From the NCBI GenBank assembly GCA_905178155.1, contig CAJINV010000001.1, positions 2,904,089 through 2,968,088 on the forward strand: a DNA stretch of 64,000 bases, given 5' to 3'. Within the stretch, counting starts at the first letter, position 1; each line of letters starts with the position of its first letter. The DNA is from Amoebophrya sp. A120 (taxonomy: Eukaryota; Protista; Dinoflagellata). This document shows positions 8,460 to 58,136 of the stretch, piece after piece. The notes under the pieces were generated by a model that did not search any database, was not told the DNA's origin, and saw only the letters and a list, made by a program, of their open reading frames with translations. Both the position numbers and the translations under genes were made by a program.

Positions 8460-11400
8460 TCATCGTTTCTGTTTCACCTGTCGGGCCCTTGCTGCGAAGC
8501 GCAAGCTCATCAAACTCTCATCTAGCATCGTCGAACAGGGGCTCAGGTTGACGAACATCAATGTTTTCGCACTGCCGCCCAGACTGTCCTGCATCAGCTG
8601 CGTGAGTTTGTGATTCCTGTACGGGATCGGGATCGTAAAAGAATTTCCACCGCCGTTTTGCTGCAGCTCCCCAGTTGTACTAGATAGAATTTCTCGCTGC
8701 TCCCCGCCAACAGTAATTTGTTCCTGCGAATCCACGGAACTCAGTGTGGCGGTGCTGTGCTGTGTCTGCAACATTTTCTGTCCGGCAACAATCGCTTGTA
8801 AAACATCCCCGAGTGCGGAAAGAGATTTGTTGATCTCCACTGCTTCGCGCATTGCAGCCCCGGTAGCCCCGGTCTTCTTCAACCGCTCGGAACCCGCAAG
8901 ATCGCAAAACGTGATCTTGCTGCTCTTTCCCGAATATCAAATGTAAAAATGTCTGGGTCGTCTGGAAGATTGCAACTTGTCATGCTAAATCTGCAGCATG
9001 CAAAAATCTGTGTTGCATGATTGCCAAAAGTCGCCCAGTTTTGAACAAGTCGGGAGGTAGTTTCTCATGCAGGATAGGCATTAGAAAGGTCTCGCAGAAT
9101 CTGTCATGCTAGGTCCGGCATTCCAGACCTCATGGGTCATGGCAAACCTGCATGACAAGTCCTACATTCTTCCAGACCCAGACATTTTTGCAATCCATAC
9201 TGAAAATCGGCTGTTCTCTTCGGACGAGTCGCGGAAGTGCACGGAGAGGACCAAGTGACTGCGACTGCTGGCGTATCCTGAGTAAAAACGTACCCACACC
9301 AGAGTCAGGATGGGGATTTTGCAACACAAACCGAGGAGTTCTGTGAGTCACGCATGACAAGTTGCACTCTGCAGTGTAGTGCAGGTTAGCAAGCGCAGCC
9401 GCATCACAGATTCGTCTGCTTATCCTGTTCACAGCATCACAAATTCCAAAACACGATTGGAAATGGCTCTCATGGGGATGCGCGGTACAAGTCTTCCTGT
9501 CTTTGCAAATCTGCATTACAACTCTGGTCTGGGGACGTTTTTGCTCAGGATATGGTGCTGTTCACCGCCGTGGCCGCGGTTTTCCGCAGTTTCACACCGA
9601 GATTCAAAATTTCGAGCAGCTCTTCCCGGGATTTCACTCGCCTCTCCGTCGCGCCCGGAACGCGGACCTGCCCAGACCGCGGGGACAGTTTCACGACCAA
9701 ATTGCTGTCCTGTTGGAGTTTTCCGACATCGTTGGCAGTCGAAGCGGTGCGGCTCGCGAGAAAGGAGGAAAAGCTGTCACCGCTAGCCCCTGCCGGTGCA
9801 GCAGCTGCTCCGGTCACGGATCCCGCACGGGAATGTGCCGGGCTGCTGCCGCGACTGTGATTGAGGTTCTGCTGCTGCGCTGCCCCCCCGTTGGAGCTGC
9901 TTCTGCGGCGCAATCGAGACACGTTTTGCGTGGAGAGGCGTCCGCGGGTTGGTTCTTGGTCATTATTCGCTGCAGCTGTTTCGGCTGCGGAACTTGTGGT
10001 TCCGAGTGCGCTGCGTGCTGACAGGGAGCGGCGCAGCTCGCCAGAGCCCCCTGGCCGAAGTTCTGGCACGAAGTCGTGGTCCACAAGCAAATCGCGAAGC
10101 TTTGTGTTGTGGAGTTCGCACATGGTGACGAATACCTGGCGCGTCGCGTACCGCTGGTTTTGCTCCAATAGGTTGAAAATGTGGTTTATCGTCCGCGGAG
10201 CCACGCCGGCATCACGATTCAGTGCCGTCGGCTTTTTACCAGTTACTTCGCCTCCAGCAGATATGCTGCTCCTTGGCGTGTTTTTTGCGCTGTTATTTGC
10301 AAGTCCGCCTGAAATTGTCCCCGCTGCCACCGTGGTTCTTGCCGGTGGATTGAACGAGCCTGATTCCGCTACCCCGACTCGCCGCGGTGATGTTGAAGGC
10401 ATTCTGGTAGCATGACCTGAAGTAGACGACGAAGAAGTGGGCTCAGTTGTTGTAATTCCGTTTTGCACCCCCGTTCCACCAGTCATTGTTCCGTTCGACC
10501 ACGTCGCAGCGCCGCCCTTAGAAGTACTACTCTTCTCCGTGACCGCCCCCGATCCGAGCAAGGTGTACGTTTTCCCCGCGCCAGTCTGCCCGTAGGTGAA
10601 AATGCAGACGTTGTAGCCGTCCAACGCGCTTTGTACCAGGTCCGCGCGCTATCAAATGTAAAAATGTCTGGGTCTGGAAGATTCTAAACTTGTAATGCTG
10701 TCTCTGGATTCGAAAAAAATTTGTATTGCATGACCTTCTTTACCCCTCAACCACTGTACCCCCTTTACGATCGCTGCCTCTGGGCAGGACCTCGGGGGGA
10801 TAGGGTCAAGCTCTAACGGGGGTCGGACCCGAGTGAAACCGTTAGAGTGGCAGCATGTCCTGGTCGATTCCGGAAATTCCATGAGCACGGTTACGTTTCC
10901 AATGGTGAAACCAAGCAAAACACGAGGAACAGACAAAGACGAAGGTCAAGGGTGGAGCAGATAAAACGCTGGGGTCTCCTGCAGCTGAAGAAAAGCGTCG
11001 CTGAGCGACTGGACTGGGGTCTCCTGCAGCCCAACAAAAGCCCTATTACAGTGGCCGCGATAGGGACCCCTCCTAGGACTACAAAAAAACACGACCAGCA
11101 GCGAGGAGACGAATGTATGACCAACAAAAGGACTCCAGTTTGTGCTACGTGGAGAGGGCATTTCTCATGCGGTAGAGGCATCACAAAGTCCCCTAAAAAT
11201 CTGTGCTGCTAGGGCATGCATCACAGACATCATGTTCATATCATGGGTCATTCAAAATATGCATGACAAACCTGGCAATCTTCCAGACCCAGATGACATT
11301 TTTGCAGTTGATACGCACTCCTCAAAAATGTCCGTCTGCGTCGACGACGGACCGAATACGGAATCGAATTCGAAAGTTTCCGCCTCTCGGTGCCGACGAA

Positions 11401-14400
11401 CGTCCGACGTGCTGGTGCCAATGGTGACGTCAGACTGCGAAAATTGCAGCCCTTCGTCGGTACTTTGATCCTTTTTGGCGAGTGCAGAATTATTGCCGTT
11501 TGTCAAGGGAGACCGCTGCGCAAGTTTTTCGCGTTGCGACATCGGACGAATGCGGGCGTAAACGCGGACCGCGCCCTTCAAGTCCTGGATTTCGTTGTGC
11601 AGCCTCCGTCGGACGGCGTGCGCTTGCCGCAGAACGTCGGGGGGTGCAGAGGTGGTATTCGCCGACGAGTGGTCTTCCAGTAGCCCAATATGTTTGCTCA
11701 AAAGCCGCGTCACCGCAGGCAGAAATCGTAGAGCATAGAGATTGTGGTGCTGGAAGAAATTCCGTGTCGCGGAAACGCAACTGTTCATACCCCGGGCGTA
11801 GTCGAGGATTGTTGGCAAGTGCGACAGGATCTTTTCCAGGCCGCGCAGGTGCTCGAAGATGGACAAAACGGATAGGGGAGAGCAGTGGAATTCCATGGCA
11901 GTCTTGCACAGCGCTTGCAGCTCCGGATCCTTCGTGCTGCCTTGATAGCCCGAATTTGGAGCGTAAATAGCTGTTGCCTGTGCAAGCAGGTCCGCTTCCT
12001 TCTGCAACACCCTCCTCAACTCTGCTAGCCTCTCTTCACCGACTCTCGTGTCTGCTTTCGCAACTGTTTTTGCTCTTTCCAAGGCGTTTTCCAACAGAGT
12101 TGTATCCCTCGTCGTTTCCCACAATTCATCGAGTTGTGCCTGCGCGTCTTGCAATCCCTGAATTCGTTTTCGGAACTCCATGCCCTTGTCGCGACAAGCA
12201 CTCTCCAAGGAGGTTCTCTTCGTCGTACGAGAGGCACTACTAGTTCCACTGCTGCTGCCTAGGACCGTACCAGCGGAACCAGCGGCAGAGGGTCGTCGCG
12301 AGGATCCACCAGGTTGCGAAGAAGACGAGGCGCTGCTGGACGAGGATCCGCTCGCGTTGTTCGTTGGTGCAAGCTGCTGCAACTGGGTCAGGAGGAATTC
12401 GACCTGAGCGGTTGGTAAAGGTTTGGAGATGTCCACGTTGGTTACCAAGTCTTCCAGCTGTGAAACCAATTCCGCACAACGGGACTTCGATGCTTGGTGT
12501 TTTGCCTGCTTTTCCCGCTCCGCTCGTTTCTCCTGCAAAGTCCTTGTCCGCTCGCGCGACGCGCGCTGGATGGTAAGTGGGTGCACGCCGGCCTCTCGCG
12601 CTTTTTCCACGGCGTTTTGAAACTCAGCATTGTCCTCTGTGCTCGTGGCAGCGAAAAGCGCGACCTTCGCGGCGTCCTCCAGCAGCTGTGCTTTGCGACG
12701 TTCCGCCTTCTGCAGCTGTGAACCGGAGGCGCCAAGCTGTTTGGCTTTGTCAATCAAATCTGCGATTTGATCGGCGGAGGCCTTGGTTGCGGTTCCGCGG
12801 GTCTGTGGCTGCGAGCCACTTCTTGTTTCCACCAAGTGCGGTGGCTTTATTTCGCTTGTTGGGTGCGCGGAGAGCGCGTCTTCAAGAGCACGCAAAGCTT
12901 CTGCCAGCGGTGTGACAGCGACACCTGGAGCGTTTTGCCCAGCCAGTCCGATTGTTTTGTTCGCACTAGACGAGGTTGCCCGCTCGAGCGGCGATGGGTG
13001 TCTCTTTAGAATCCCGGCCAAAACAGGCTTGTTTGCCGCGTTTGGAGGTGCAGCAGTTGATGAGGCGGGCCTCGTTGCCGTAGTAGTTCTGTAGCGCGAT
13101 GACCCTACCTCTCCCGCTGCACCAGATGGTCGCGTGCGAAGCAGGCCGCTGGCGGAGGGCCGCCGAGTCTGAAGAGACGGGCGAGGAGGTTGGTTTGCAT
13201 TCGACTCATGATGTCCAGGAGGTCCTGCCGGCGGCACGCTCGTCGTGCCTGTAGTTGGTGCGAGCTTCGTCGAGTGCGTTTGCTGATAGTTGCCCGGTTT
13301 CTTCTTGCTTTTTTCTGCTTTCAGCTGTTGCAGGCGCTCTTTGAATCCACGAAACGCAAGCCCGGACGAGGCGACCGAGGATTTCGTTTCGGCGTTCGGG
13401 GGCAGAGAGCCCGTCTCATCTACTTGATCATGATGGTGTTGCTCTTGGTTGTAGGGAGCCGTACCCGTAGTTGCTGTTCCTGCATGATCAATCCTTTGAT
13501 CATCTAACTGCGGGGAAGATTTCAACAATAGTGCAGCGTTTTTCTCTTCGGGAACTGATCCCTTTTCAACATCTTCCTGGTAGTTCCTCTCCTGCTCTAA
13601 CCCACTTCCGGTCTCAAGTTCCAGGCCTGAGCGCGGGGTCTTGTCGTCGTTTGCAACTCCGACTAGCGACGAGGACAAAATGCTGCTGTGAGTGGCACCA
13701 CCAGTCGACCGATTCGCCTTTAGCCGCTCGCGAAGCGCTGCCAGTCGTTGTCCCGGGCCGCTTTTTGGTTTTGCGAAAGAAGAGGTCCTTGTAGCAGCTT
13801 CGTCGTCTTTTGTGGGAACGTTCATCGCCGCTGCTGGGAGCGCGGGGGTTTGGGCACTTTCGACAGTTGTAGACTGCATCGCAGGTGTGGGTGTTGGTGC
13901 AAAATGCAGCGTGACTTCTTCCAATTTGCTTTTCTGTTCTGCTACCAACACCTCCGGCGCATCCGCATTCTGCTTGTTGCTTTCATCATCGACGGCAAGT
14001 GGTAGAGGCGATGGTGGTCCTAACTCTGCGTTCAATGCGGCAGCGGGATTAGCAGAAGAGTATGGCTCGCCAGGTTTTTCTGTTGTGTTCACAGCACTGG
14101 TTTCAACTTCATCTATCTTGCTTGCTAGCTCCGGAATTACGGACAAATCTGGTACGGACAAATCCGGATCGTCCTCGTCGAAAAGCACCGCTTCGTCGTC
14201 TGCTTTGCGTAAATCGGACAGACTTCCCCGTTCCGCAACATTCGTAGAGCCCCGCTTTTTCCGTGTGGTTCGCTTGCGACTGCGGGCGCTCTCCGCGAGT
14301 TGATGCTCTGTCGGGATGGGGTGGTGCGGATTCTGCACATGGAGGTGCTCGGGCTGTCGAGCTGCCGTGGCAGCGACGGCTTCGCTTAGAAATGATTCCA

Positions 14401-16579
14401 GCGGTGACGACTTGATGTGTGCGTTGATCATTTTTCCGGCAGGTGCTACTATTTTCGGGGATTGTTCTAGCTGTATCGGAGAAAGAGCATGATCGTCATC
14501 GGCTCCAAGATTTCCCAAGCCAGGCGAAGTCACTTCGATGGCGGAAAGGTTGGCAAAAGACAGCTGCGGAGATTGGTGCTGCTGCTGCGCAGTGTCGTTT
14601 CTTATCGCTGCTGATGAGTCATCAACACCTGCAGGAGCAGTAGCAGGGGCAGCTGCCGGCGCTAGCCTTGTCGGCGATGCCGACCTACTGTTCGCAGCCC
14701 CTGCCCCCGCGGGCTTCGCTACTGTTCCGAGCGACGGTGGCTTATTTCTCGGCGTGCTTTTGCGATGCTCCGAGGAGCGAGCAGAAATTGACGACAGCGA
14801 CATACGCGTCAAGTGGCCGATGCCGTTTCCGTCGTCGTGACCACGTTCAGATAGCGGCACTACTAGACCCGGTTCCTTACTTGGTCGTTTCTCGAGCGAA
14901 TGCCGCAGGGCCATGCTTCTCACATCATTCTGCTCGGGTTTTTTTCGCTCGTCACTGCTACTCCTCCTCGTCTCTTTCGCAGGTCCTCCGCCTGTTGCCC
15001 ATGCCGGCTTCTTTACTACAGAAGGTGCTGCGGTTTTTGCTTTTTCTGCCAGCTGTGCTGGTATTGCTGCTGCTGCAGCTGCGACAGGCTCAGTTCGCCC
15101 CGCAGGTTCTGTTGCCCACCCTTTCTTACGCTGCTGCGCCTTTTCTTGCAGCTTCGCGAAAACACCTTTAGGCTTGCGAGACGCGACGAGAGCAGTGTTC
15201 TTGCTAGTTGCGTCCTGTTTCTTCTGGGCAGACGGCGCTAGTACTGTCTCCTGGGCCTGCTTAGACGCCGGCGCTGAGACAACTTTCGCGTTGCTGGCGG
15301 ACGCACTTCTTCTAATTACTCCGGAAGACTTAGACTGCCCTTTATTGCCTTTCCGCTCCACGCCGCGAGAAACCTCCGGGCGTTTATTGCGCGGCTGCCC
15401 CCCGGACGAGTGGCTGCGAGGTGGATGGACCGGCTGTCCCCGCAATTCGTAACTTCCGTCTCGCTTCCGCACAACATGGCGTCCAGTAGACGAAACCACT
15501 TCACGCCCCCTCGCGGTCGTCAGCTCCGCCTCCGCAACCTTTGATGTTAGTTGCAGTTGCCGACCTCTGCCCGGGCTTTCTCGCCTCGGCTCCGCGGCGG
15601 CGGGTGAGGTGTAAGGAGGAGGCTCAACATGCAACTCTGCCTGCGCGAGCAGGTCCACACCCGTTCCCGTTGGTGATGGCATCACCACAACAGACGGGCT
15701 GCTCATTTTTGAAGTCTCTTCTTCGGAGGTAAAGTCGAGGTCTTTCTTGAAAACCAGCGTCTTCGCACCTGCTCCGGTCGGCAGCTGCCGCTTTTGGGTA
15801 GATGACGTTGACGTTGAGTTCATTTGCTCCTTTGCAGCCACCAGGCTTGCCGGCGCACCACCGAACTTCGCCAACTGCGGAACCACGGTGCCAAACGGGA
15901 CCACTGCGTCTGCCAGAATTTCACAGCCATCACCCAAAACGCAGTTCGACGAGATGACGACGTTATTGCCGATCACAACCCTTTCCCCGATCCGGCTCCC
16001 GATCAGGACACAGCCTTTGCCGACCCTCGTACCGGTGCCTACCGATACTGGCTGCGCTTGTTGCACAGCAGCGGATTCTACTTGGCGAGAACTGACGCCT
16101 ACTGCTGCAGCGCTTTTGCCACCAATCGTGTTCATCGCCCAGTTCGCATTACTGCTCGAGCTCGCTGAAGACGTGCCCGTCAGCACGCCGCTCGTAGAAG
16201 TTCCCGGTCGCAAAATCGTGTTTTCGCCGATGCGGACCTTGTTGCCGATTACCAGCTTGGCGTCCAGGTCCCCGCGTAGGTGGACATTTTTCTCGATAAC
16301 CACGTCCGTGCCAATCACGATATTCCGGCTGCCCCAGATCTTCACAGACTCGTGAATCTTGCTGGTCGCGTAGTGCGACGCGCGAAACTGGTCTGTCGCA
16401 TTGACGCTGGACCGGTGCGACCGCTTTTTACTCGTCGATGTTGGTGCGGGAGGGGCTCTGTGTTGAAGGCTCGACGAAGTAGTTGTTGTGCCTCGTTGTT
16501 GTGCTTGCGGAACAGCACGCGCGCTGGCACTGCCGCTGTCCGCGTTGTTCCCAGAGGCTGATTTGGTACTCCGTCGCAT
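8460..16579 (-). CDS. Kinesin-14 (C-terminal motor) with N-terminal dynactin p25 (DCTN5)-like left-handed beta-helix. Exons 16579-11314, 10644-9553, 9268-9200, 8929-8460
   Basis: Neck [24 protein letters not shown]-loop GQTGAGKT, switch I NSTSSRSH, switch II DLAGSER and [18 protein letters not shown]. These motifs join in frame only after three TIR elements are removed. Confidence 0.9.
8935..9199. mobile_element. TIR introner, family A (kinesin intron 3)
   Basis: Left end TATCAAATGTAAAAATGTCTGGGTC..TGGAAGA is inverted at the right end as TCTTCCAGACCCAGACATTTTTGCAATCCATA. 5-bp flanks on the gene strand are TTCAG/TTCGG. Confidence 0.9.
9274..9552. mobile_element. TIR introner, family B (kinesin intron 2)
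   Basis: 32-bp TIR TATCCTGAGTAAAAACGTACCCACACCAGAGT versus TATCCTGAGCAAAAACGTCCCCAGACCAGAGT (3 mismatches). Flanks CACCA/CGCCA. It splits NST|SSRSH, and no GT-AG is available at the junction. Confidence 0.9.
10650..11313. mobile_element. TIR introner, family A (kinesin intron 1), carrying a nested insertion
   Basis: TIR TATCAAATGTAAAAATGTCTGGGTCTGGAAGATT at the left and its inverse at the right. Flanks GTGCG/GCGCG. Interior is homologous to 30298-30540. Confidence 0.9.
10736..11116. mobile_element. Nested ~380-bp insertion inside a family A introner
   Basis: Absent from sister copy 30298-30540 (TGCATGACC|AGCAAGAGG). Flanked by an ATGACC duplication at 10730-10735 and 11117-11122. Confidence 0.75.
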
Positions 16580-18045
16580 GATTCCACTGCCACTGGCTCA
16601 GAGATAGTGCGCTGGTGCCGTTGTACGTATTTCACATAAATTTCAAGCTATCAAGTCCAAATTTACAGGCTTTCTGAATCTGTTACTCTTTAGCTTTGGG
16701 CGAAATCTACGCTTTTCCTATTTCTGTTCTAGAATCCAGCTGCAATGTTGTCGTGATTTTGGCCACAGATTTGCAAACGAAAAACGATGAAAAAAAGCAC
16801 GAAGCGAGTTCGCCTTTGTTCACTTCTCACACCGTTGCACTTTTACGTTCACTACGATTTGCGTCAGTTGGAATTTGTGTATCTCACATTGACTTCGATC
16901 CTGCATCAACTCTTGACAAACAACGATAATCTGAATAAAAAGACTTGTTGGTCGTGTGTGTCTTCGTACGTCAACACTTGCGTTGCCTTCGTACATACGT
17001 TCACATACACGAACATGGCACAAGCAAAACTGAAACAAGAAACGCGACAGCAACTCGCAGACGCCGATTGAAATCAGTGCGCGCTCTCCGGTTGACGGCT
17101 CGGACACCCTGCAGCGTCTGCTCTGACGGGTCGTAGTTTTGTTGTACTATAGAAGGTTTCATTTTTCATAGTTTCGATTGTTCAGCAAATTTTGAATACA
17201 ATGCATATCATCGTTAAGTGTGATCTCCTTGTCCGTGTTTACTTCCGGTGATTGCCTCCGGAATCGAAAGTTACGGTGCTGTTTTGAGTTCCCGCGGACC
17301 CGGTGTTGTACGTGTGATGTTCGTCGTCTCAAACTCAATCTCCTACTCTCAATTCGTGCGGCTGTGGGCCGTGGTATTTGCTTCACCCACCAGGACACTC
17401 TCGATTTCGAGGATTCCACCCAACAAATCTGTCATCCTCGTCCTCCTCGCTTTGCACACAGTAAAAAATGCAAACTAAAGGCAATTCAACAAGCGTGGCA
17501 TTAAACAATAAATTCAAGGGAGCTGAAACCGTACTAAAACCGAAACAGTGAAAACCTAAGAAAAGCTCATTAACAGTGAACGAGTGCAGCGAAAACTCAT
17601 TTTGCACTCTTGACGTTCTGGTACTAGGACATAATACCGCAATTTCTGATATGATACCGGTAAAATTTTGCGTTGAACTAGGAACTTCTCGATGGACGTG
17701 AGAAGCTCCTGTTCTTTTTTGTAAACTATTGCTAAATTAACAGATTCGAGTTGTTTTTTGTCGAATTAAACGAATTAAAACAGAGGTTTGGTCTTTCAGG
17801 ATGCGTAAACTTTAAGGAAACAGGTGAAAAGTATAAACTTGACGTTTTCATCTTTTTTCAGGCTCGATTCACATGGTGTCAGTTTTCGTTTTGATGTCAT
17901 CATCAAAGGACTTCGTCTACATGAATTGGAAGCCTTCGACGAAAACGAGCACTGATGCATTTTTTCTACAACAGCTTGTTGTCTCAAAAGAACTCGTTGA
18001 TTGCTCGAGCAGAAAGCTGCTGCAACTAGTACACCACTTCGCTGC

Positions 18046-28460: not shown

Positions 28461-31277
28461 TCAACTGGCCATGACCACCTCGATCTTTTTCCTCGTTTTG
28501 AGCTTTGGTGCCACGGATTGGTTGCTGACCGCTTGAATGGTGTTCTCCTCAGCCTCCTGTTCTCTTTGTCGCTTCAAACTACCCGTCTTCGCCCCGTCCT
28601 TGATTTCTGTTTCCAGAGGCGCTTCCTGTGCCATTTCCGCTTCGAAATCCTTCAATTTCAGTTCATCTGGGAGCGTTTCCCGGGTGCACTGCGTGATGAA
28701 GAGGTCCTGCAAGGATTCGGAGTAGTTCTCTTGCTTCATCATCATCTGGATTCCCTCGCAAAATTTCTCGACCGCGGGCCGCAAGTCTGGCGGGTTGCTC
28801 TTGGTTTCCTCAAGGTCGAAAGTCTCTTTCGGAAAACTGACGCCGACAAACATCTGCTTCCCTTGCGGGAACGTCCTCGTGATGTTCTCCGAGTCGGGAC
28901 CAAGCGGGAACTTGTCCGGGCACGGATGGAGTTCAACTCCGGGAACCATCTGCTCGATCGTGCTAAAAAGGCGACGGAGTTTACTCTCGACGAAGCCCTG
29001 TTTGAATGGATTCATCCATTTCTTGATGTGATGTTTTTCCCTATGAGCCTGCTTGTAGATGTAGATCAGATAAAACAGAATGAGACGCAAAACTTTTTTC
29101 ATAGCGTATGAAAGAATGTATCCACAACTGTACCTCCCATCTATTGAACGCGGTCGGATTTCTCGCGAGGAGCTGCACTCGCAAGTACTGCCGGTGCATG
29201 CCGAAAAAAGGCGCTTTGGCGTACACATCGCTCCACTCCTTGCTGCCCTCGAAGACCGCCTGTGTGTAGGCCCGTGCGCGCTTGATTTCCGCCTGGATGA
29301 CGCGTTTTGTCGCGGGGAAGACGTTGTGGGTGGAGTTCATTGCGGGAAAGGCGGGCGTGATGATGGGCATCAGGTGCTGTCGGTCGTGCGGGCTGTTGTG
29401 CGGGTTCCACACACGCAGGTGGTTCAACCCTGCTTTTTCGCCAATCTGGTCAATGGTCTGGAGCAACACTGGTCGCTCGTAACCCCAGTTCCACTGGTCA
29501 TACACCTGGATTTTTTATGAAGTGATCAATTGTTTCTGCACAAGCCCAGCCACAAGCTCAAACTCAGTTGCAATTCAGAAGTAACTACTTGAATTGTCTT
29601 ACATGTGCTACGAGGCTCTCGCTTTAGGTTTAGTTTCAGCCGTCAACGTCAGCACGCGAAGAAAAAAAAGTTTGTTCTGTACCATGAAAAACCGGTGGAC
29701 GATCCCTGCGGCGTTGTAATTGGGGTAGAGCTGGCATATTCTGGCGACCAGAATCGCCCACACGATACCGCCGAAATAGCCCAGCATGTTGTTGGACACC
29801 CCTCGTCGCTTGCTCCAGTGCTTGATGAAGCGCAGGGCAATGCGGAAGACCTCCACATTCGGCACCAGCCGCAAGATCATTTCGTTCACACGGTTTCCGT
29901 TGATCCCGCGGGCACTCTTCTCGTCGAGCCCGACCAGGAGGGTGTCATCCTGTGGGGAGGGATTGGTTTTGTCTCAGTCACAGGCACCAGAAGTACACAT
30001 AGCGGATCAAAGACACAAGTGAAATGAAGAGAATGCGGCGCTCTGACTTCAGAGCATGATGAAAAAGCAAACAGACAGAACAAAAAGTACCAGTAGTGAA
30101 TCCACGTCCCGCAGGTGCGGCAAGTTCAGCCTCGCGAACCCCAGATCGACCGCTTGGCCTTCGATCATCATTTCGATGAGAGGCGTGTGCGCGGTCTCGA
30201 CCGGGTTGATTTCGGACATTTTGAATTTGTCCTTCACCTCTTCCAGTTTCGCGACCAAATTGTTGAAAAAATGCTCCCGGGTGATGTGTTTGGGCACTAT
30301 CAAATGTAAAAGTGTCTGGGTCTGGAAGACTTTGAACTCTAGAAAAATCTGTATTGCATGACCAGCAAGAGGAGTCTAGTTTGTGCTACGCGGGGAGGGC
30401 GTTTGTCATGCGGAGTAGGCATCAGGAAGCCCGCTGAAAATCTGTGATGCGCGGTCGTGCATTATAGACATCCTGGGTCATGCAAAACATGCATGACAAA
30501 TCTCAGAATCTTCCAGACCCAGACACTTTTACATTCGATAGGCACCACGCAAACGCAATCGATATCGCTGTTCGGTGCCATCACGCCGAGCTTCATACTT
30601 CCGAAGAGAAAAATATGGCGTTCTCAACTGTTACATTCTCAAGTGTTACATGGATTTGTCATGCAAGAATGGGAAAAGTGAAAGGGGGGAGGTTGCATCT
30701 GTAGCATTACAAATTCCGAACAGATTTGGGCGCTGTTTAGCCATTCGCAAATTTGTCATGCGAAGCAGCTTGATCGTGTGGATCTTGATGATCATTTTGC
30801 ATGACAAATCATGTAACAGCTGAGAATGTAACGTTTGAGAACGCCATAAAAAATCTTCGCGCTCGCGAATCGTGCGTCGGACTCATCCAGCTGGGCGGCT
30901 TGCATGCCGATCTGCAAAATTGTTTGATTTTTCACATGAGTTTGCGCTAGGTATTCTGATACATAGATTGGAATCCAATTCCAAAGTCGCTATCAGCAGA
31001 CAAAAGCCATTGAACTGTTTGACGAGTCAACCTCAACATTAGAAGCTTTTCTTACCTCCATGGCCCATTCTCTGACCACTCCTTCTAAGCTCTTCAATAT
31101 TCTGGCTCGCTTTGCCTCCCCCTCTTTCGTTTCCGCCGGTGCGTCCCGGTCCAGCGCTTCCACCATGGGTTCCAGCTGGGATCGGGTTTCCACCGGCGTC
31201 GCGCCCGCGTCGATGGGATCGGAGACACCCAGCGCCACATGGGGCTGGGTGCCGTCGGTGTTGGTGCGCGTGTTCAT
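28461..31277 (-). CDS. PAP: Canonical poly(A) polymerase. Exons 31277-31056, 30911-30849, 30608-30541, 30292-30091, 29949-29683, 29505-29134, 28997-28461
   Basis: FGSMKLGV..SDIDCVCVVP, AVDLGFARL, INGNRVN, LRFIKHWSKRRG, LGYFGGIVWAILVARICQLYPN, MPIITPAFPAMNSTHNV and WEGFVESKLR. Four GT-AG introns and two TIR introns. Confidence 0.93.
30298..30540. mobile_element. TIR introner, family A (PAP intron 3)
   Basis: TIR TATCAAATGTAAAAGTGTCTGGGTCTGGAAGA and its inverse. Perfect TSD GTGCC/GTGCC. Removal gives VVP|KHITREHFF. Confidence 0.92.
30614..30848. mobile_element. TIR introner, family C (PAP intron 2)
   Basis: ~50-bp TIR TATGGCGTTCTCAA..GTTACATTCTCA..TGTTACATG.ATTTGTCATGCAA. TSD TTTTT/TTTTT. Removal gives AKIF|LFGS. 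Confidence 0.92.
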
Positions 31278-32104
31278 CGGTGTCGTTCTAGCTACTCCCG
31301 TGGATGCCGAAAACGCTTCATTATTCGTGAATAAGCATGATCACGGTAAGGGTAACGCTAGCGAAGAGGAATGAGTTTCAAGTGAAATAAGGTTAAACTT
31401 CATGGACATGGTCATGGAGGACTTCTTGTTGCTTTACCTTGTTTTGAAACAGCGCTGTGCAAAAACGTTTAAGTGTATTCAGGATTTTACTTTTAGTTTT
31501 AGTTATAGCTCAGAGTTGAAAAACAAAAACTCGTCATCGACGTACATAATCGAGGATGCAGCCACCTCTTTGTCTGATCCTACAAACGCGATCGCCATCA
31601 AGATCAACTACAAGTTCGTCTTTACTTGGATCTCAAGGACAAAGACCAGCGCGAGCTTTGAGTGCTTGAGTATCACTGGGAACCTTTTGGTCGTCGTGGT
31701 AGGAAGATCGCGGTTTTGCAAAATGGTCGTGCTTGCACTCTGCATCTTTTACCTGAAACATCTACTGCCCAAAATCATGAAGATCTACTACGTGTATCGC
31801 AGTCGGTACAGTACTAGCAAGGAGCGATCATCAAATCAGGTCTCATCTCAGCAGCAATGGAGAACATGAAAAGCCGCATCCTTAGCCAGCATGGAGGCTG
31901 CGACGGAGCCGTGATTTAGGGGCGTCTCAGTCTTACGCTGGAGTCTACTACATGGATGGGTCTTCAATCAGAACTGATTGAGCAAAAAAATCTCGAGCGT
32001 AAATGTTACATCTGAATGTGATGAGTCATGCTATTCGTTTTTGTATTTGTTTTCCGCATTCCTTTGTTTCCTAGATATTGATATTCTGTAGTGCCTATGC
32101 ATGG

Positions 32105-40733: not shown

Positions 40734-41342
40734 TAGGTTTATTAGGATGTTGTGCTGGAAATCTACATGGGATCGCTGTATTATTTTACAAACCTATTAT
40801 ATTAAGGAGCCAAAGTACTTAGTTTGAGTTTCAACTCCACCCTCATATTAATTGAGACGCAACTTCCACTCCTTCGTTTCCCATGGGCAACACGAAGTGC
40901 GAGTTCTTACTGAATAAAACACGATAAAATACTCAAACGGCTCTCACTGTATTTGACTTGAATGACAATGACGACCACGACTGAAAAATGAAGACGACAG
41001 CTCGGCTGACTTTGTGTACGGCTGAGCCTGCAATATATAATGGATCCTGTGACCACCATGTATGACCTCCTCGTTTCTGGTTACTAGACATCGATCTGTA
41101 GTTCGCCAGCGGCTGAACAAGAACGAAATGCGATGGTGCGCTGCATGCATGAAAATGAAGAACAACAATAAATGAATTTGAAAGGTCCCATTTGAAAACA
41201 TAATTGCATCGAGGGTTTACCTTTAGGCTTTTTAGCTGGCTTAAAAAAATCATCCAGAAGTGGTGAAAGTGTTTTCCCCTCGACAAACGGAAGTGCTTGT
41301 TGTGCCTCGCTTTTTATTCTTCACAACTTTATTCACATCAAT

Positions 41343-45357: not shown

Positions 45358-48300
45358 TCACCGTGTGCTGACGTCCTTCGGTTCTCGGGCACTGCAGACG
45401 AAAAAGCGGTCTCCACTCTTGATATTCTGACAATTGTCGTCGTTCCAGGTGTTGTCCTTGCGCAGTACGGCGCAGTCCTCCTTGCCGCCCCAGTCGTTGG
45501 GCTCGCCGGGGGCCCAGTTGGCCTTGTGGTATTTTTTCAGCAACTGATTCTTATCCGCCGTGAACCACGCACCCTCGGTGTACTTGTCGTGCGCCCCGAT
45601 GAACACGTCTTCGCGGCCGGCGAGCATTTTTACGAACCGTTGCTGTCTGCTGCTCTCCACGATTGCAAGGGTCGTGCCCGCCGGGCATTTCCCCTTCCCG
45701 TCTTGGTTCGTACCGTACTGGTACGCAACGGTGCCGGCGCACTTCCACTGTTTCTTCCCACATTCGGACTTCGGGTCAGAGGCGGCGTACTTGTAGACGG
45801 AAAGAGCCGACTCACCCCCGCACATCCACTCGTCCGCGGTTTTCACGGCCGACTTGTCGGCGGACAAGCAGGCGGACTCCATGCACCGGTCATCGGAGAT
45901 CTTCGAGTAGCCGTCCGTTCGGTCGGTGCAAGCGCATTTCCTCCCGTCTAGGAGGGCGAAGAACGTGGTGGTTGCGCACTTTTCGCTGCAAGCCGCAAAA
46001 GTGTAGTCCTTGTCAGAGTGGATCTGCAGGCTCTTCGCGCTGTCCTTGCTGAAGCAACCGGCAAAGGAAACGTCGGCTGAAGTTGTGACTCGATATCGAT
46101 TTCCAAGAAAATGAAGCGTGATTGGCAGGCAATCAAAAGGCAATACGAACAATAAGCTCGTGAAAAGCATGTGGTGATAGCGATACATGAAGATTGATTT
46201 ATAGCAATTTACCTTGGTGCTTGTACACACTGTTTCGCCAGCCACTGCCACACATCAAGCTCTCGTCGTGCTTACACGGTTGGCACTCGTGTTTCGGCTT
46301 TTTCGCAAAGTCGACCGCGTTACCGCACCAACACTCCCCGCCCGCCTGCACTGCGAAGAACTCGTAGTTGTGACACCACACGTTGCAGGCTTCCGGGGTC
46401 GCTTTCGCCCACCGCTTTCTCCTCTTGCCGCCGACCCAGGGGCCGAGCCGCGCTGGGAGATCGCGGTCGCCGTTATCCTCGTAGCACCCCTGGTACTCGG
46501 GTATGAAGTTGGAGCAGAGCTTTTTTTTACTGTCAAAGCTGAACCCGTAGTCGCACCCGTTCGGCGCGCACTGCTGCGCGCCGTGCTCCGTGCACATGGC
46601 TCCCTTCGCGGGCTCGCCGTGCTTCGGGCAGAAACATTCGTTCTTCTCGCACTTGCCGTTTTCGAAGTGGTATCCGACCGAGCACCCCTCGGGGAGGCAG
46701 ACGTCCGCCCCGTCCTTCGGACAGTTTTTCCCGGTCGGTCCCTTCCCGTGCGCGCAATTGCAGGTGTTCTCGACGCAGGCGTCGCGATCCAGGTGAAACC
46801 CGGCGTGGCACGAAGCGCACACGTCGTCCCCGTTGTGCGGGCAGTGCATGCCCTCCGCGCCGTTCCCGTTCTCGCACCCGCACACTTTCGGCTTGCAGGT
46901 GTGGGTCTTCTTGTCCAGCGCGAACCCGTATCCAGGGAAAAACACCCATCCCCAGCCATTTTTTGCATGACAAGTAGTGAATTTTATGCATGTTTTGCAT
47001 GACAAATTGGATGCGGATGGGTGTTTTTTCCTGGATAATCCGCCGTCGCAAGAGCTGCACTTCGCGGTTCCGTGCTCCTCGCACTCCGCGCCCATCGCTC
47101 CAAGCCCGTTTTCGCAAGTGCACTTCTTCTGCTCGCAGGTCTTCTCGTCGGTCAGCGCGTAACCCTCTTCCTCGTTGCACGCAGCGCAGACATGCGCGTC
47201 GAAGTGGGGGCAGCCCACGCCAGTCGCCGGCTCCCCGCCGTTGCAGTAGCACTCGTTCTGCACACAGAAGCCCGGGGGGCCCATCCCGAACATGAACTCC
47301 GCGCCCGGGTTGCACTTCGCGCACATTTCCGTCCCGTTCGCGTGGCAGTCGGTGCCAGTGGCGCCCTTTCCAAATTGGCACGTGCACTGCTTCAAGTCGC
47401 ACTTCTGCGTCTTGTTGTTCAGAATGTACCCCTCCTTCGTGTCGCAGCTCGCGCAAACCTCCGCACCGTCCAACGGGCAATTCACCCCCTTGGTGCCGAC
47501 CCCGTGGTTGCAGATGCACTCCCGGACTTCGCACTTGTCACCGACCAGGTGGTAGCCGGCCGTGACGTTGCAGCTTTTACAAGTTTCCGTTTTCGCGGTA
47601 AAGGCCTCCTTCGGACACTCCGTCAACTTTTTCGGCACGCCGTTCGGACAGCTGCAAACGCGCTCGACGCATTTTCCGTCTTCCAGTTCGTAGCCCGGGT
47701 CGCAGGAGGCGCAGAGCGGCTCCTTGTGGACCGGGCACTTCGTGTTCTTCTCCCCGGCGCCGTGTTCGCAAGTGCACTGTTTTTCCACGCACTTGTCGTC
47801 GATTAGAACGTACCCGTCCTGGCAGCTCATGCACTTCGGGGCGAGGTGTTCGGTACAGTTCGCGCCACTCGCGCCGGCGCCGTTGTTGCACGTGCACTCG
47901 TTCAAGTCGCATTTGTGCGTCGTCGTGTTCAAATGATACCCTTTTGTTGTGCACTTCACGCACTTTTCGTCCCCCGCCTTCGGACAGGTCGTCCCAACCG
48001 CCGGTTCCCCGAGGTCGCAGACGCACTTCCGCTTCTTACAGTCCCCCTGCTCCAGGTCGAAACCCGGGTCGCAGGTTGCACAAAGCGGGGACTTATGCTT
48101 GCCGCAGGCTTTTCCCTCCGCGCCATGTCCATTCTCACACGTGCACTGGTTTTTCACGCACTCGTCGCCGATCAGCGTGTGGCCCGGCTTGCAACTGGTA
48201 CATTTCGGCTTCCCGTGCTCCGGGCACAAAGCCCCTGTCGCCGCCTTCCCCTTGTCGCAGGTGCACTCGTTCACGACGCAGATGTCCTGCTTGTTCATGT

Positions 48301-50641: not shown

Positions 50642-51044
50642 GTTCTGGCACCAGGTCAGGGAGTGTATTGTCATACAGGTTTTTTCCGCGGCCACAGAAT
50701 GTACGTTGCCATTTTGCTCCGCCCGCTGGCAGAAGGGACCGAAGAGATGCCTCTTCGAGCTCCGCCAACGGATCTAAGAAAAAGAGTGCATGTGCTGGAG
50801 TCAAGCAATAGATCGTTAAAGTAAGACCACCGGAACAAGTGCTGGATGGACAAGATCGTGTTGAGACAAGTCCCTCGTCGCTCATCGCTCTTGGGATCTT
50901 TTCCAGCTCTTGCGTTCGGATCAATAAACTGAACACTACGTGCACGTCGCTCGTCGTTCTCATGGCGACCAAGACATCAAGTTCAAGATCAAACGTACTT
51001 TTTACGTAGTTAGCACTACCGCAAACTACAGGGATTCTTCATCG

Positions 51045-53202: not shown

Positions 53203-54489
53203 TCACGCACCACCCGCCGCTCTGTTCCGGTTCCGGATCTCCTCGATGGTGAGATCGCAATCGTCCAGCTCGATGTTGTTTAGCTTGATGATTTTCTGCA
53301 CCCGGCGCAGTTCCGTGATCGAGGGGATGGCGAGTTTGCCGATGTCCTCCGTCGGAATGTGTTCGTGCATCGACCGCATAATCTCCACGTTTGTCGGTTC
53401 CTTCTCGTACTGCTCATCCCCGATGCGTCGCCCGGCCGCGATTTTGATATCCGTCAAACGGTTGTTCAGGTCCAGAAACACCGCGGGTAATAAGTTGTCA
53501 AACTCGATGTCCCGCCGGGGCGCGCACATGAGCAAGGTCGTTTGAAACTTGAAGAACAAATACGGAACCGGTTGCATCCGGACCACTTTGCCGCCCGGCG
53601 ACTCTTCCGGCAGGTCGCCCCAAAAGTTGTCCGGGCCATCTTCGAAAAACACCGGGGTCCACGGTCCGCCGTTCACGCGCTCTTGGCGGCAGTTGTTCCG
53701 GAACTCCTCCTTGAAAGCGGTGATCAGTTGCGTCCCGTGCAGGTAGCCTAAATTCAGCCAGTTCGCACAAGCGGAATTCTTGTCCTCCCACAAGTTGTTC
53801 TTGTTCGTTTTCCGTTCGTACGCGAGCAATTTCGCCGCCAAGACGGCTTCGTTGATGTCGTTCTGCGTTTGCTCCCGGCTCAAATGGCACTCCGGATCCC
53901 CGGGGCCGATGGATTTCCCGTAAATCTCGATCTTGTCCTTCTTCACCTCCTTGAACAAGCGGTACCCGAGCGGCCGCTTGTTCTCCCCCGCTTGCACATC
54001 GTGTCCGATGTACAGGCAGAAATTTTCAAAGTCGTAATCCGCCACATCTGTGTCAACTTCATTCGCGCACAAGGCTTTCAGATTTTTCCACAAATCCTCA
54101 TTGTGCCGTCCCGCGAAGTACAGCCAGAGAGTTTTGGGAAACGTCGCGAAAAGATGTTTTTGCTTTTCCTGCTCGACGCTGGAGGGTTTCATCTGTTGTG
54201 CTGGATTGCTACCATCACTTTCTTGGCGCTCCACTGCTCGTGCTGTGGATTTTTGCTTGTTCTTTGCCGGTGGAACACCAGCTCCCAAGTGCGGATTGGT
54301 ATTCTTGTTCTGTTGAAGATGAAGATCTACGCCATTTTTCAGTCGTTCCTTGTCACTGCTCCTTCCGGTGTCGTCTGTTTGTCCAGGTCCTCCCGGGGAC
54401 TCCGCTTCCTCGTCCGCAATGTCTTTTCCGTGCTTCAGTTTGTGCCGGAAAGCCTCCAGCTGCTTCTTGTTGATACGCTTCGGCGCCAT
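53203..54489 (-). CDS. Hypothetical protein X (full-length, intronless copy)
   Basis: ~428-aa ORF from MAPKRINKK. Its 5' half is duplicated at 57296-58136. Confidence 0.8.
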   Translation of the reverse strand: MAPKRINKKQLEAFRHKLKHGKDIADEEAESPGGPGQTDDTGRSSDKERLKNGVDLHLQQNKNTNPHLGAGVPPAKNKQKSTARAVERQESDGSNPAQQMKPSSVEQEKQKHLFATFPKTLWLYFAGRHNEDLWKNLKALCANEVDTDVADYDFENFCLYIGHDVQAGENKRPLGYRLFKEVKKDKIEIYGKSIGPGDPECHLSREQTQNDINEAVLAAKLLAYERKTNKNNLWEDKNSACANWLNLGYLHGTQLITAFKEEFRNNCRQERVNGGPWTPVFFEDGPDNFWGDLPEESPGGKVVRMQPVPYLFFKFQTTLLMCAPRRDIEFDNLLPAVFLDLNNRLTDIKIAAGRRIGDEQYEKEPTNVEIMRSMHEHIPTEDIGKLAIPSITELRRVQKIIKLNNIELDDCDLTIEEIRNRNRAAGGA

Positions 54490-56111: not shown

Positions 56112-58136
56112 CTTCTTCACCTCCTTGATTCCGTGTTTCCTTCTTCACCTCCTTGAACAAGCGGTACCCGATATTCTGCGAAAATTTGTCACCGTCACCG
56201 TTTTGCCATGTTCATTTTTCAACCCAAAAAATTTGATTTTTTCCTGGTATCCCACGCATGCTCATGTCGATCAGTTGTTGCAAATGTGGCATGCGAGGCA
56301 TTACACTTGGAGCATGGTCGTGGCCCGGGTAGTTGAACGCAATCCAGAAGCGCCCCGGAATGGCTTCGCCGCCGTACAGACCGAAGACGCGGCGCGGGAG
56401 GGTGCGTTGCGAGGAGGCTGTCTTCTGGCGCGTAGGGGCCCGACCCTTGCTGGGGCGGGCTTCTGCATGGTGCGGCTTGCGATGTTGGGTTGCTCCTGGG
56501 AATGTCGGGCTCTTGTTACTCCTTGGCCAAAGGCCTCCGGCAAACGACCTCCACAACCCAGGAAAAAACAGCAAAATTTCGAGCAAATTTAACGACCACC
56601 CGGTGACACATCCCGGAAATTTTGCATTTTGCACGGTATGGTGGACTTTGAGAGCCCAAAATGGGAACCGGTGACAAATCCCGAATTATTTACATTTTGC
56701 AGGGTATGGTGGACGATTGCGCACGAGCCAAAAATTCTTGCGCTGCAAGAAATTTTGGGCAACGCGCAATCGTCCACCATACCGCCCAAAATGTAAAAAT
56801 ATCAGGATTTGTCACCGGTCGCGAATTTGGCTTGGAAACGTCCACCATACCGTGCAAAATGCAAAATTTCTGGGATTTGTCACCGGGTCATCGTCAAATT
56901 TGCTCAAAATTTCGCAGTTTTTTCTTGGGTTTTCGAGACCCTTTGCCGGAGGCCTTTGGTCCAGGAGTGATAGTCTCAAGAGATTCCCAGAAGCAACTCA
57001 GCATGACGCGCCGCACTATTCCGATCCTTCGCGGCCGGAACTCTGGTCGCTGAAGTGTCAGGAGACAGCCTCCCAGCTAGGGACCTTCTGGGGCCGCGGT
57101 TTTGGCTTGTATAACGGCAGCGCCGTTCTTGGATATGTCTGGACGGCCTTCAGCATGCTGGGTCAACATGCTTGGAATGCAGTCGTTGGATTGCCGCACC
57201 CGCAGCATTTGACAGAAATGGACACATATAGGAAATCAGGTAAAAGTCAAATTTTTTTGCTCAAAAAATGAACACGCCAAAACGGTGACGGTGACCTCCT
57301 TGAACAAGCGGTACCCCAGCGGCCGCTTGTTCTCCCCCGCTTGCACATCGTGTCCAATGTACAGGCAGAAATTATGGGAGTGTCAGGATTGAAATCGACA
57401 AAGTTGAAATAACTTGCAATGCATAAAATCGATACCAGTTGGAAGCGCAATTTCCAAGCGGCGCATGACAAATTTAGGCACCATCTAAATCCGGTTTGTC
57501 ATGCTGTTTACGGACAGAGGGCGTCTTTTGTCATGCTGCTTTAGCAGCTCTATCGCAGACCCCAACCACGCTGGCGGTCGGCTTCGCTTGCCATCCCTGC
57601 AAGAGAGGCACCTCAACATGCCTTGCAATTTATGTATGAGAAATTATTTCAACTTTGTCGATTTCGATCATGACGCTTCCATAGAAATTTTCAAAGTCGT
57701 AATCCGCCACATCCGTGTCAACTTCGTTCGCGCACAAGGCTTTCAGATTTTTCCACAAGTCCTCGTTGTGCCGCCCCGCGAAGTACAGCCAGAGGGTTTT
57801 GGGGAAAGTCGCGAAAAGATGCTTTTGCTTCTCCTCAACGCCGGACGGTTTCTGCTGTACTGCATTGCTGCCATCACTTTCTTGGCGCTCCACTGCTCGT
57901 GCTGTGGCTTTTTGCTTGTTCTTTGCCGGTGGAACACCTCCTGCCAGGAGATGCGGATTCGAATTTTTTTCAGCTGCGTCTTTTCCTCCTTCCCTGTCAC
58001 TGTTCCTTCCGGAGGTGTCGTCTGCTTGTCCAGGTCCTCCCGGGGAATCCGCTTCCTCGTCCGCAATGTCTTTTCCGTGCTTCAATTTGTGCCGGAAAGC
58101 CTCCAGCTGCTTCTTGTTGATACGCTTCGGCGCCAT
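56035..58136 (-). CDS. Chimeric X::Y gene (predicted 221 aa). Exons 58136-57684, 57367-57296, 56175-56035
   Basis: Removing the family E introner and a GT...AG intron (56176-57295) gives ...GYRLFKE|NIGYRLFKEVKKETRNQGGEEDEAFAEHFGMDAHAQEGRGSFTFTA-stop. Confidence 0.6.
56188..57295. mobile_element. 1.1-kb foldback (whole-length imperfect palindrome) element
   Basis: Ends GTCACCGTCACCGTTTTG / CAAAACGGTGACGGTGAC. Arms pair inward (GTATGGTGGACGATTGCGC / GCGCAATCGTCCACCATAC) to an apex TTCTTGC-GCT-GCAAGAA near 56742. Confidence 0.92.

What the first reader, a model, noticed from the sequence alone, without database searches (positions are those of the whole stretch)
8930..57688. One rule for seven non-canonical introns from five families: TAT...ATA inverted repeats, 5-bp TSD, removal of element plus one TSD
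Seen: elements at 8935, 9274, 10650, 30298, 30614, 46929 and 57373 interrupt coding sequence, including the kinesin switch I and PAP catalytic motifs. Their TIRs belong to five otherwise dissimilar families, yet all begin TAT and end ATA. All sit between 5-bp direct repeats (gene strand: TTCAG/TTCGG, CACCA/CGCCA, GTGCG/GCGCG, GTGCC/GTGCC, TTTTT/TTTTT, CGGAT/CGGGT, ATTTC/ATTTC). In 7/7 cases, deleting the element plus one repeat restores the frame, and most junctions offer no GT-AG. Known: inverted-repeat introners and abundant non-canonical introns are reported for Amoebophrya, but to my knowledge the excision machinery is unresolved. Inference: one transposase superfamily seeds MITEs that are removed without a scar by a hairpin-guided, dinucleotide-independent mechanism.
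Basis: partly seen in the sequence, partly recalled or inferred. Interest (0 to 1): 0.92.

Follow-up and report, generated by a model that had tools for sequence, protein, structure and literature searches.

The report
Amoebophrya introners share one hidden motif
These are the already described hairpin-ended mobile introns of the marine parasite Amoebophrya A120: they share TAT ends, a 5-base target duplication and a repeated 9-base internal motif, and three are cleanly missing from a likely RNA sample, which would give handles for finding the still unknown machinery that removes them.

Summary
All seven elements sit at the stated places with TAT...ATA inverted ends and 5-bp direct repeats (31 of 35 bases match), and removing element plus five bases gives an open frame in 7 of 7. 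The genome is Amoebophrya A120 by a database label. Its introners, TAT starts and 3-5-nt repeats are published (PMC7789003), and one family is filed as Ginger-like with a 5-bp duplication (PMC12130899, supplement), so the system is known.

Added here:
- One contig of a probable RNA run lacks elements 1-3 exactly and keeps the upstream repeat copy, while a DNA-like run holds them at exon depth.
- A 9-bp motif (TTGTVATGC) has 19 of 19 window hits inside the elements.
- In a second assembly, 330 of 332 members of 14 families carry the motif within one mismatch.
- There the elements lie in either orientation and cluster 26-119 bases apart.

Corrections: element 7 lies in a partial gene duplicate; elements 4-7 have no read evidence; an eighth foldback breaks the rule; no transposase was found. 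'Hairpin-guided' is unproven. A protein reading the motif fits at least as well.

The parts
8935..9199 (.). E1, family-1 element (265 nt) in the kinesin gene (- strand); repeats at 8930-8934 and 9200-9204
   Evidence: absent with five more bases from X3 record 9 by piece lengths
9274..9552 (.). E2 (279 nt), inside the kinesin switch I motif (label recalled); repeats at 9269-9273 and 9553-9557
   Evidence: upstream copy 9553-9557 kept with no other letters in X3 record 9
10650..11313 (.). E3, family-1 element (664 nt) with a unique interior; repeats at 10645-10649 and 11314-11318
   Evidence: skipped 10645-11313 in X3; interior depth 0 in X3, 41.7 in X1 against exon depth 41.7-43.5
30298..30540 (.). 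E4, family-1 element (243 nt) in a poly(A) polymerase gene; repeats at 30293-30297 and 30541-30545
   Evidence: no read evidence
30614..30848 (.). E5 (235 nt) in the same gene, 73 nt from E4; repeats at 30609-30613 and 30849-30853
   Evidence: no read evidence
46929..47037 (.). E6 (109 nt) in a cysteine-rich WSC-domain gene; in frame and stop-free if retained; repeats at 46924-46928 and 47038-47042
   Evidence: public model P0122 skips 114 nt here; A25 orthologue P0123 is collinear without it
57373..57683 (.). E7 (311 nt) in a 5'-partial duplicate gene; repeats at 57368-57372 and 57684-57688
   Evidence: removal not shown
54019..54023 (-). Empty target site of E7 (one copy of the 5-mer) in the intact, intron-free paralogue 53206-54489
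8977..8985 (+). First of 19 copies of the motif TTGTVATGC (last at 57528-57536); all 19 lie inside E1-E7, on both strands
9200..9273 (-). 74-nt spacer between E2 and E1, giving a 69-nt exon
   Evidence: 69 record letters between the shown pieces of X3 record 9
8460..16597 (-). Kinesin gene carrying E1-E3 in its motor domain (upper limit is the stop-to-stop frame)
56172..57295 (.). 1.12-kb foldback: one end starts TAT with an A-run seven bases later, the other end is shortened; flanked by a 23-bp repeat; no TTGTVATGC. An exception to the rule

Best explanation
These are non-coding, inverted-repeat mobile elements of Amoebophrya A120 that insert with a 5-base target duplication and are likely cut out of the RNA together with the downstream repeat copy, probably by a modified host spliceosome guided by the element's symmetry and its repeated 9-base motif rather than by GT-AG. 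Step 1, insertion with a 5-bp duplication and no target preference: shown. Step 2, mobilisation in trans by one DDE transposase, probably integrase-related, reading TAT ends, an A-run at positions 11-15 and the motif: inferred (one enzyme about 0.6; integrase-like about 0.4). Step 3, exact removal of element plus five bases from the transcript and not from bulk DNA: shown for E1-E3 in one contig of a run only guessed to be RNA, inferred for the rest (about 0.9). Step 4, cut after base 4 or 5 of the upstream repeat: shown past base 2 at E2 and E3, indirect past base 4 at E1. Step 5, a U2-type spliceosome without U1 snRNA, with ends brought together by the fold and marked by a factor bound at the motif: inferred (about 0.45).
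For:: X3 record 9 maps as 11314-11700, 9553-10644 and 8400-8929 with no other letters and 69 letters unshown; depth 0 in E3's interior against 13.2 in exons. X1 contigs run from exon into element and cover E3's interior at 41.7 against 41.7-43.5. Empty site; A25 orthologue without E6 and A120 model skipping 114 nt. Second assembly, JACKZZ01 loci, 491,862 nt: of 17,302 inverted pairs only TAT-ended ones carry 5-bp repeats (307 of 594 at 4 of 5 or better; next CAA 31 of 569). Of 321 pairs chosen without the repeat, 205 are perfect at 5 bp against 3, 2 and 1 at 3, 4 and 6 bp. 55 of 56 independently framed flanks need one repeat copy. Only 14 of 251 offer GT/GC-AG in any register; both orientations occur in all 8 families tested, none p<0.1. 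Motif: 19 window hits against 1.83 +/- 1.29 expected, all inside the elements; 330 of 332 family members within one mismatch; starts peak at 32-33 and 40-42 nt from the end. No target preference. PMC7789003 passages: nearly all spliceosomal proteins found, U1 snRNA not detected. A canonical GT-AG intron coexists in the PAP gene.
Against: Removal rests on one contig of one run whose RNA nature is a guess; the raw RNA runs X9 and X10 had no exon coverage. No transposase: the longest frame in the 14 longest elements is 149 aa and 0 of 16 frames match Pfam; PMC7789003 found none in A120. TAT is not invariant: 178, 180 and 176 of 187 unselected ends keep T, A, T, and 7 of 146 family-1 pairs have a deviant end. 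55 of 350 elements lack the motif near either end and 119 have it at one end only. On RNA the two terminal motifs would pair with each other, which hides them from a single-strand reader; their spacing from the end suits a DNA-binding protein better. 27 of 43 repeat mismatches are synonymous against at most 44% expected if one copy were free (p=0.009, post hoc; third-position test p=0.14), which does not fit one fixed cut well. Exceptions exist: the window's foldback, roughly ten TAT elements without a 5-bp match (by eye), and a Mutator-type A120 family with 8-9-bp duplication.
Confidence: 0.6

Rival explanations
1. Same elements, but removed by a non-spliceosomal endonuclease-ligase that reads the stem, as proposed for euglenid nonconventional introns; the motif serves transposition only.
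For: No dinucleotide rule, both orientations tolerated; strong folds, z -8.3, -13.6 and -7.2. Euglenid introns pair at their ends and are excised as circles without a lariat (PMC11282704, passages). U1 snRNA not detected (PMC7789003).
Against: End pairing is loose and shows little co-variation. The spliceosome is nearly complete and 35% of A120 introns are GT-AG. No such enzyme was sought or found here.
Confidence: 0.22
2. The element is skipped during transcription: a protein bound at the motifs loops the element out of the DNA, and RNA polymerase realigns the nascent 3' end from the upstream repeat onto the downstream repeat.
For: It would explain orientation independence, the kept upstream copy, DNA-like motif spacing, a junction that can slide and so favours synonymous mismatches, and weak selection on TAT.
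Against: Element sequence is present in X3 (summed depth up to 3723), although DNA or untranslated copies could supply it. 60 of 350 elements have a mismatched repeat. Five bases is a short hybrid. No precedent at this scale is known to me.
Confidence: 0.08
3. The elements are excised from DNA in the growing stage, like ciliate eliminated sequences, and the X3 contig is rearranged DNA or its transcript.
For: X3 is only guessed to be RNA; DNA-transposon anatomy; exact loss of one repeat.
Against: X1 holds the element junctions as unbranched contigs at exon depth. PMC7789003 validated 66,565 A120 introns by RNA-seq against the genome. The stage of X1 is unknown and contigs drop rare variants.
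Confidence: 0.05
4. The apparent splicing is a reverse-transcriptase jump across a hairpin between direct repeats.
For: Hairpin plus short direct repeats is the known setting (PMC8240250, seen in the search listing only).
Against: Removal looks complete (depth 0 in E3's interior). Six of seven retained elements would stop the protein. A jump copies the downstream repeat first and should keep it, whereas the upstream copy is kept (reasoning mine).
Confidence: 0.05

Closest known systems
Introner elements (IEs) of Amoebophrya A120 (Farhat et al. 2021, PMC7789003)
   Same: Same organism label. Inverted repeats start TAT, seven variable bases, then an A-run; direct repeats at the borders; non-canonical ends; hairpin; no internal transposase.
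   Different: That paper gives 3-5-nt repeats of varied position and calls the border unknown. Here the repeat is 5 bp outside TAT in 14 families and the upstream copy is kept. A shared internal motif, orientation independence and close clustering were not in the text, legends or table that I read; figures were not visible.
A120 introner family 38, filed as Ginger (Gozashti et al. 2025, PMC12130899, supplement file 8)
   Same: Row reads '5-bp TSD, TA/TA Termini', TIR DNA element.
   Different: One family of 5 copies, about 810 bp. Most of the 50 of 58 A120 rows I saw are 'Unknown', with automatic duplication lengths of 2-6 or none given. The main text says it lacks the termini and duplications expected for Ginger. 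I could not compare sequences.
Ginger1 and Ginger2/Tdd transposons (PMC2836005)
   Same: Inverted repeats of some tens of bases or more; 5-bp duplication in TDD-4 and TDD-5.
   Different: Ginger ends are TGTNR, most make 4-bp duplications with target preference and encode an integrase-like transposase. Here ends are TAT, there is no target preference and no coding frame.
Euglenid nonconventional introns (PMC12501133 abstract; PMC11282704 passages)
   Same: Majority class of non-GT-AG introns, paired ends, duplication-like repeats, unknown machinery.
   Different: They need a short paired motif at asymmetric distances and a purine starting the 3' exon. Here the structure is symmetric, works in both orientations and shows no exon base preference.
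Micromonas and Aureococcus introners; Fritillaria non-canonical introns (review PMC11282704, passages)
   Same: MITE origin, duplication at the borders, one copy lost on splicing.
   Different: Those use GT/GC-AG taken from element and duplication, or favoured AG-AC/AG-AT ends. Only 14 of 251 elements here offer GT/GC-AG.

Membership tests
Amoebophrya A120 introner elements | Host genome is A120 | tested here: met
   P0122, named Amoebophrya sp. A120 by its sources, is 99% identical to a window protein and maps exon by exon to the window
Amoebophrya A120 introner elements | Inverted repeats starting TAT, seven variable bases, then three or more A | tested here: met
   TAT in 7 of 7; A-run at 11-13 in E1-E4 and E6, not in E5 and E7; 0.89-0.94 A at positions 11-13 in 305 elements
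Amoebophrya A120 introner elements | Direct repeats of 3-5 nt at the borders | tested here: met
   5 bp, 31 of 35 bases
Amoebophrya A120 introner elements | Removed from transcripts at non-canonical ends | tested here: met
   E1-E3 in X3 record 9 (RNA status guessed); E6 in the public model only; E4, E5, E7 not shown
Amoebophrya A120 introner elements | Repeated in the genome | tested here: met
   element ends far above exon depth in X1 (not a copy number); each of the seven has relatives in 5-107 of 135 loci
MITE (non-autonomous TIR transposon) | Terminal inverted repeats, true target duplication, no coding frame | tested here: met
   empty site with one copy; no Pfam match in 16 of 16 frames
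MITE (non-autonomous TIR transposon) | Cognate autonomous element with transposase | tested here: inconclusive
   none within the 60-2500-nt range scanned in 492 kb; no whole genome held
Ginger transposons | TGTNR termini | tested here: not met
   termini are TAT(C/G) against PMC2836005
Ginger transposons | 4-bp (5-bp in TDD) duplication with target preference | tested here: inconclusive
   5 bp fits TDD-4/5 only; no target preference over 290 perfect sites
Ginger transposons | Integrase-like DDE transposase | not testable with these tools
U2-type spliceosomal introns | GT/GC-AG ends | tested here: not met
   0 of 7, 14 of 251
U2-type spliceosomal introns | Lariat with a branch point, U2/U6 dependence | not testable with these tools
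   needs lariat sequencing or snRNP pull-down
Euglenid nonconventional introns | Purine at the start of the 3' exon and asymmetric paired motif | tested here: not met
   no base preference at repeat position 5 or the next base; ends are symmetric
Euglenid nonconventional introns | Excised as full-length circles | not testable with these tools
   needs RNase R and back-junction reads

The most novel reading that the evidence does not exclude
One 9-base motif is a universal tag for these introners. A single protein (a transposase or its domesticated DNA-binding part) bound there mobilises the families, draws new insertions to within 26-119 bases of a resident element, and marks both ends for removal. 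The element is dropped either by a U1-less spliceosome or by polymerase realignment between the two 5-base repeats. That would be a transposon-derived intron-definition system that has replaced GT-AG.
Probability: 0.17. Interest if true: 0.88.

Novelty: already known. Interest (0 to 1): 0.5.

Why it matters
About 65% of A120 introns are non-canonical and how they are removed is open in the papers I read. The elements themselves are not new. What makes the question testable:
- A fixed anatomy across 14 families.
- A short motif to use as bait in pull-downs.
- Natural mismatches between the two repeat copies, in 60 of 350 elements, that mark the cut position in any RNA data set and so address the border that PMC7789003 calls unknown.

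Orientation independence argues against a strand-specific branch or pyrimidine signal, unless it is the symmetric motif itself. If one protein reads the motif for both jumping and removal, it would show how a transposon can make itself harmless in thousands of genes without splice sites.

Tried and rejected
- Whole-genome scan: no genome held.
- No RNA holder on record was listed. Raw RNA runs X9 and X10 laid 5 and 3 reads, none on exons: no evidence either way.
- Reads were not obtained for E4-E7, which leaves their removal and the cut register at E6 open.
- Table S4 of PMC7789003 (top A120 ends all NT-nn) first looked like support for a cut after repeat base 4. Rejected: an aligner choosing among six equal registers would give the same pattern.
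- TA as a Tc1/mariner-type duplication: rejected, since 2-bp repeats match at chance level and frames need a gap of 2 mod 3.
- P0121 looked like a spliced model of the E7 gene but maps wholly to the paralogue 53206-54489.
- Transposase: 0 of 16 frames from long elements match Pfam at E 0.5. The family-1 end pattern gave 0 hits in viral contigs and 1 in prokaryote genomes (about 0.14 expected by my estimate, not followed up).
- Rfam: 0 matches. Earlier findings: none.
- The motif as a branch point: not favoured, since it occurs 80 to 65 on the two strands and pairs with its mirror copy.
- A third-position excess of repeat mismatches (15 of 19) weakened to 26 of 43 with more elements.
- Rows dropped: 99 of 350 elements could not be framed; 87 were left out of each frame test or lay too near a locus end (263 of 305 used there); 55 motif clusters near locus ends were not examined.
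Full report
1. Observation. Five is the only repeat length above chance (31 of 35 bases; 19-43% for lengths 2-4 and 6-10), and seven pairs at 4 of 5 or better have a chance of about 5e-13. A scan of the window blind to the terminal letters gave these seven and one 1.1-kb foldback as the only extended inverted pairs. Removing element plus five bases opens the frame in 7 of 7. The kinesin exons around E3 match Pfam Kinesin positions 1-62 and 66-96; the exon between E5 and E4 matches NTP_transf_2 and the next one PAP_NTPase. Retained, six elements stop the protein within 2-26 codons and E6 does not. No cut register gives GT-AG or GC-AG in any of the seven, but frame-keeping GT/GC-AG pairs lie within 30 nt in six.

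2. Organism. The window's katanin has its nearest named relative in Amoebophrya sp. A25 (59%). A record named Amoebophrya sp. A120 is 99% identical to the E6 gene product and maps to the window in four exons.

3. They are insertions. The gene holding E7 is an 80%-identical 5'-partial copy of an intact gene at 53206-54489, which has one copy of the 5-mer at the same site. The A25 orthologue of the E6 gene aligns across the site without the insert, and the A120 model skips 114 bases, element plus five; whether that model's junction has read support is not known to me. E7's copy loses similarity 34 bases after the foldback, so it may be a pseudogene.

4. Removal. Four runs were laid on 8400-11700. 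In X3, guessed to be RNA, one 7043-nt contig maps as 11314-11700, 9553-10644 and 8400-8929 with no other letters. The 69 letters between the last two pieces are not shown but equal the 74-nt spacer minus five. Depth in the unique interior of E3 is 0 against 13.2 in exons. In X1, which behaves as DNA, contigs run from exons into the elements and E3's interior has depth 41.7 against 41.7-43.5 in exons. So E1-E3 are in bulk DNA and absent from the assembled transcript. X9 and X10 had no exon reads. E4-E7 have no read evidence.

5. Which repeat copy is kept. The copies differ at position 2 in E2 and E3 and at position 4 in E1. The contig carries the upstream copy at E2 and E3 directly. At E1 the last piece starts at 8929, which fits the upstream copy through position 4, but the deciding piece was not displayed. 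The cut therefore lies after position 2 for certain, and probably after 4 or 5. A reverse-transcriptase jump would keep the downstream copy, so this also argues against the artefact (my reasoning).

6. Generality. Its relation to the window's strain was not determined; the longest matches to the seven elements are 69-89% identical. Among 17,302 inverted pairs of any terminus, only TAT carries 5-bp repeats: 307 of 594 at 4 of 5 or better, next CAA 31 of 569. The loci were fetched with a TAT pattern, which favours family 1 but not the other families in the flanks. Of 321 TAT pairs chosen without the repeat, 205 are perfect and 37 match 4 of 5; of the other 79 most are inner TATs or cross-pairs, and roughly ten look like real exceptions by eye. 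Where both flanks could be framed on their own, 55 of 56 need one repeat copy. The 350 elements fall into 14 multi-member families (332 elements) and 18 singletons. Of 251 framed elements 14 offer GT/GC-AG in any register, and both orientations occur in all 8 families tested (28 to 38). Target sites show no base preference.

7. The motif. All 14 exact TTGTCATGC hits in the window lie in the elements, which cover 3.3% of it. The wider form TTGTVATGC, taken from the second assembly, has 19 hits, all inside, against 1.83 +/- 1.29 expected. It is within one mismatch in 330 of 332 family members, 3.3 times per element. Inward-facing copies start mostly 32-33 or 40-42 bases from the end. Of 350 elements 176 have it near both ends, 119 near one and 55 near neither. 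Of 625 exact hits in the loci, 252 fell outside the first element set; 53 of 114 inner clusters were further TAT elements, and most of the other 61 sit in element-like sequence with damaged ends. Repeated sites at set distances from the end are what transposases of several superfamilies bind (recalled). No paper listed holds the motif together with Amoebophrya; figures, such as the logos of Fig. S25, could not be seen.

8. Clustering. 95 of 241 neighbour gaps are under 120 nt against 36.9 expected (maximum 54 in 1000 placements); only 1 is under 26; 81 of the 95 join different families. The window's two pairs are 74 and 73 nt apart. Linker insertion is reported for other introners (PMC9860276, passages); attraction to a protein-bound resident element is an alternative. 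Neither was tested.

9. Results against the simple model. The ends of one element are barely more alike than shuffled partners (28.46 vs 28.20 +/- 0.10 of 32, n=139), so there is little sign of selection on pairing, although the folds are strong. TAT is about as variable as other end positions, and 7 of 146 family-1 pairs deviate. Of 43 repeat mismatches 27 are synonymous, above the 44% ceiling for one free copy (p=0.009, post hoc; third-position test p=0.14). A sliding junction, or conversion from empty alleles, could explain this; it stays unexplained. No transposase was found. The foldback at 56172-57295 has one TAT end, one shortened end, a 23-bp repeat and no motif.

10. Mechanism. Most likely one transposase acting in trans makes 5-base staggered cuts and moves any element with TAT ends, an A-run and the motif (inferred). 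The host removes element plus downstream repeat from the transcript (shown for three, in one contig). I favour a modified spliceosome, since nearly all its proteins are present and U1 snRNA was not detected (PMC7789003), a canonical intron sits in the same PAP gene, and a tunicate spliceosome is reported to have adapted to MITE-derived introns (PMC11282704). A stem-reading nuclease-ligase, skipping during transcription, DNA excision and an artefact are the rivals, in that order.

11. What is known. PMC7789003 (read: abstract, passages, sections 11, 12 and 16, supplement part 3 and legend passages) describes these elements in A120: inverted repeats starting TAT, 3-5-nt direct repeats, a 5-bp example, 29,850 repeated introns in 1954 families, hairpins, no transposase, border unknown. 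PMC12130899 (passages; supplement file 8, 50 of 58 A120 rows) files family 38 as Ginger with '5-bp TSD, TA/TA Termini' and family 65 as Mutator with 8-9 bp. PMC2836005 (passages) gives Ginger ends as TGTNR, which these fail. PMC12501133 (abstract and outline), PMC11282704, PMC12005148 and PMC9860276 (passages) give the comparisons. PMC8240250 was seen in a listing only. Roy 2023, Henriet 2019 and Huff 2016 were not read. Figures, the 8 unseen rows, supplement file 14 and closed bioRxiv supplements may already hold the motif or the uniform 5-bp rule.

12. Verdict. Real, and already known as a system. The uniform anatomy, the motif, the kept upstream copy, orientation independence and clustering were not found in what I could read, and they turn an open question into specific experiments. 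Interest 0.5; novel case 0.17 at 0.88.

Noticed in passing
window 56172-57295: 1.12-kb foldback, 71.6% self-complementary over 1115 nt, with one TAT end, one end replaced by duplicated exon sequence (23-bp repeat), GT and AG available, and no match in the 135 loci. Looks like a damaged or partly converted element of another family.
   Followed up: partly
window 53206-54489 and 57294-58635: Intact intron-free gene of unknown family (428 aa, P0121) and a 5'-partial duplicate about 3 kb upstream that took two insertions.
   Followed up: partly
window 38604-40793 and 28461-31300: Two poly(A) polymerase genes 7 kb apart: one in a single open frame, the other with two elements and a canonical GT-AG intron at about 29950-30091.
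   Followed up: no
window 1-64000: Most of the longest frames, and every one that matched Pfam, lie on the - strand (FAD/methyltransferase, kinesin, katanin p60, PRCC, GHMP kinase, PAP, WSC, MOSC), as in the co-oriented clusters reported for this genus.
   Followed up: no
JACKZZ01 loci, 251 framed elements: First base of the duplication falls on codon position 3 in 110 cases against 71 and 70 (p=0.002) although targets show no base preference. Unexplained.
   Followed up: partly
L040:5329-5608: TAT...ATA element with perfect ends flanked by an 8-bp instead of a 5-bp repeat.
   Followed up: no
window 10731-11140; L050, L044, L079, L031: Long elements (630-1150 nt) carry unique interiors with no Pfam match; part of E3's interior is repeated in X1 and part single-copy. 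Possible captured DNA or remnants of larger elements.
   Followed up: partly
window 49484-49618 and 46078-46213: Two canonical-looking introns of 135-136 nt in the E6 gene, from the public model P0122.
   Followed up: no
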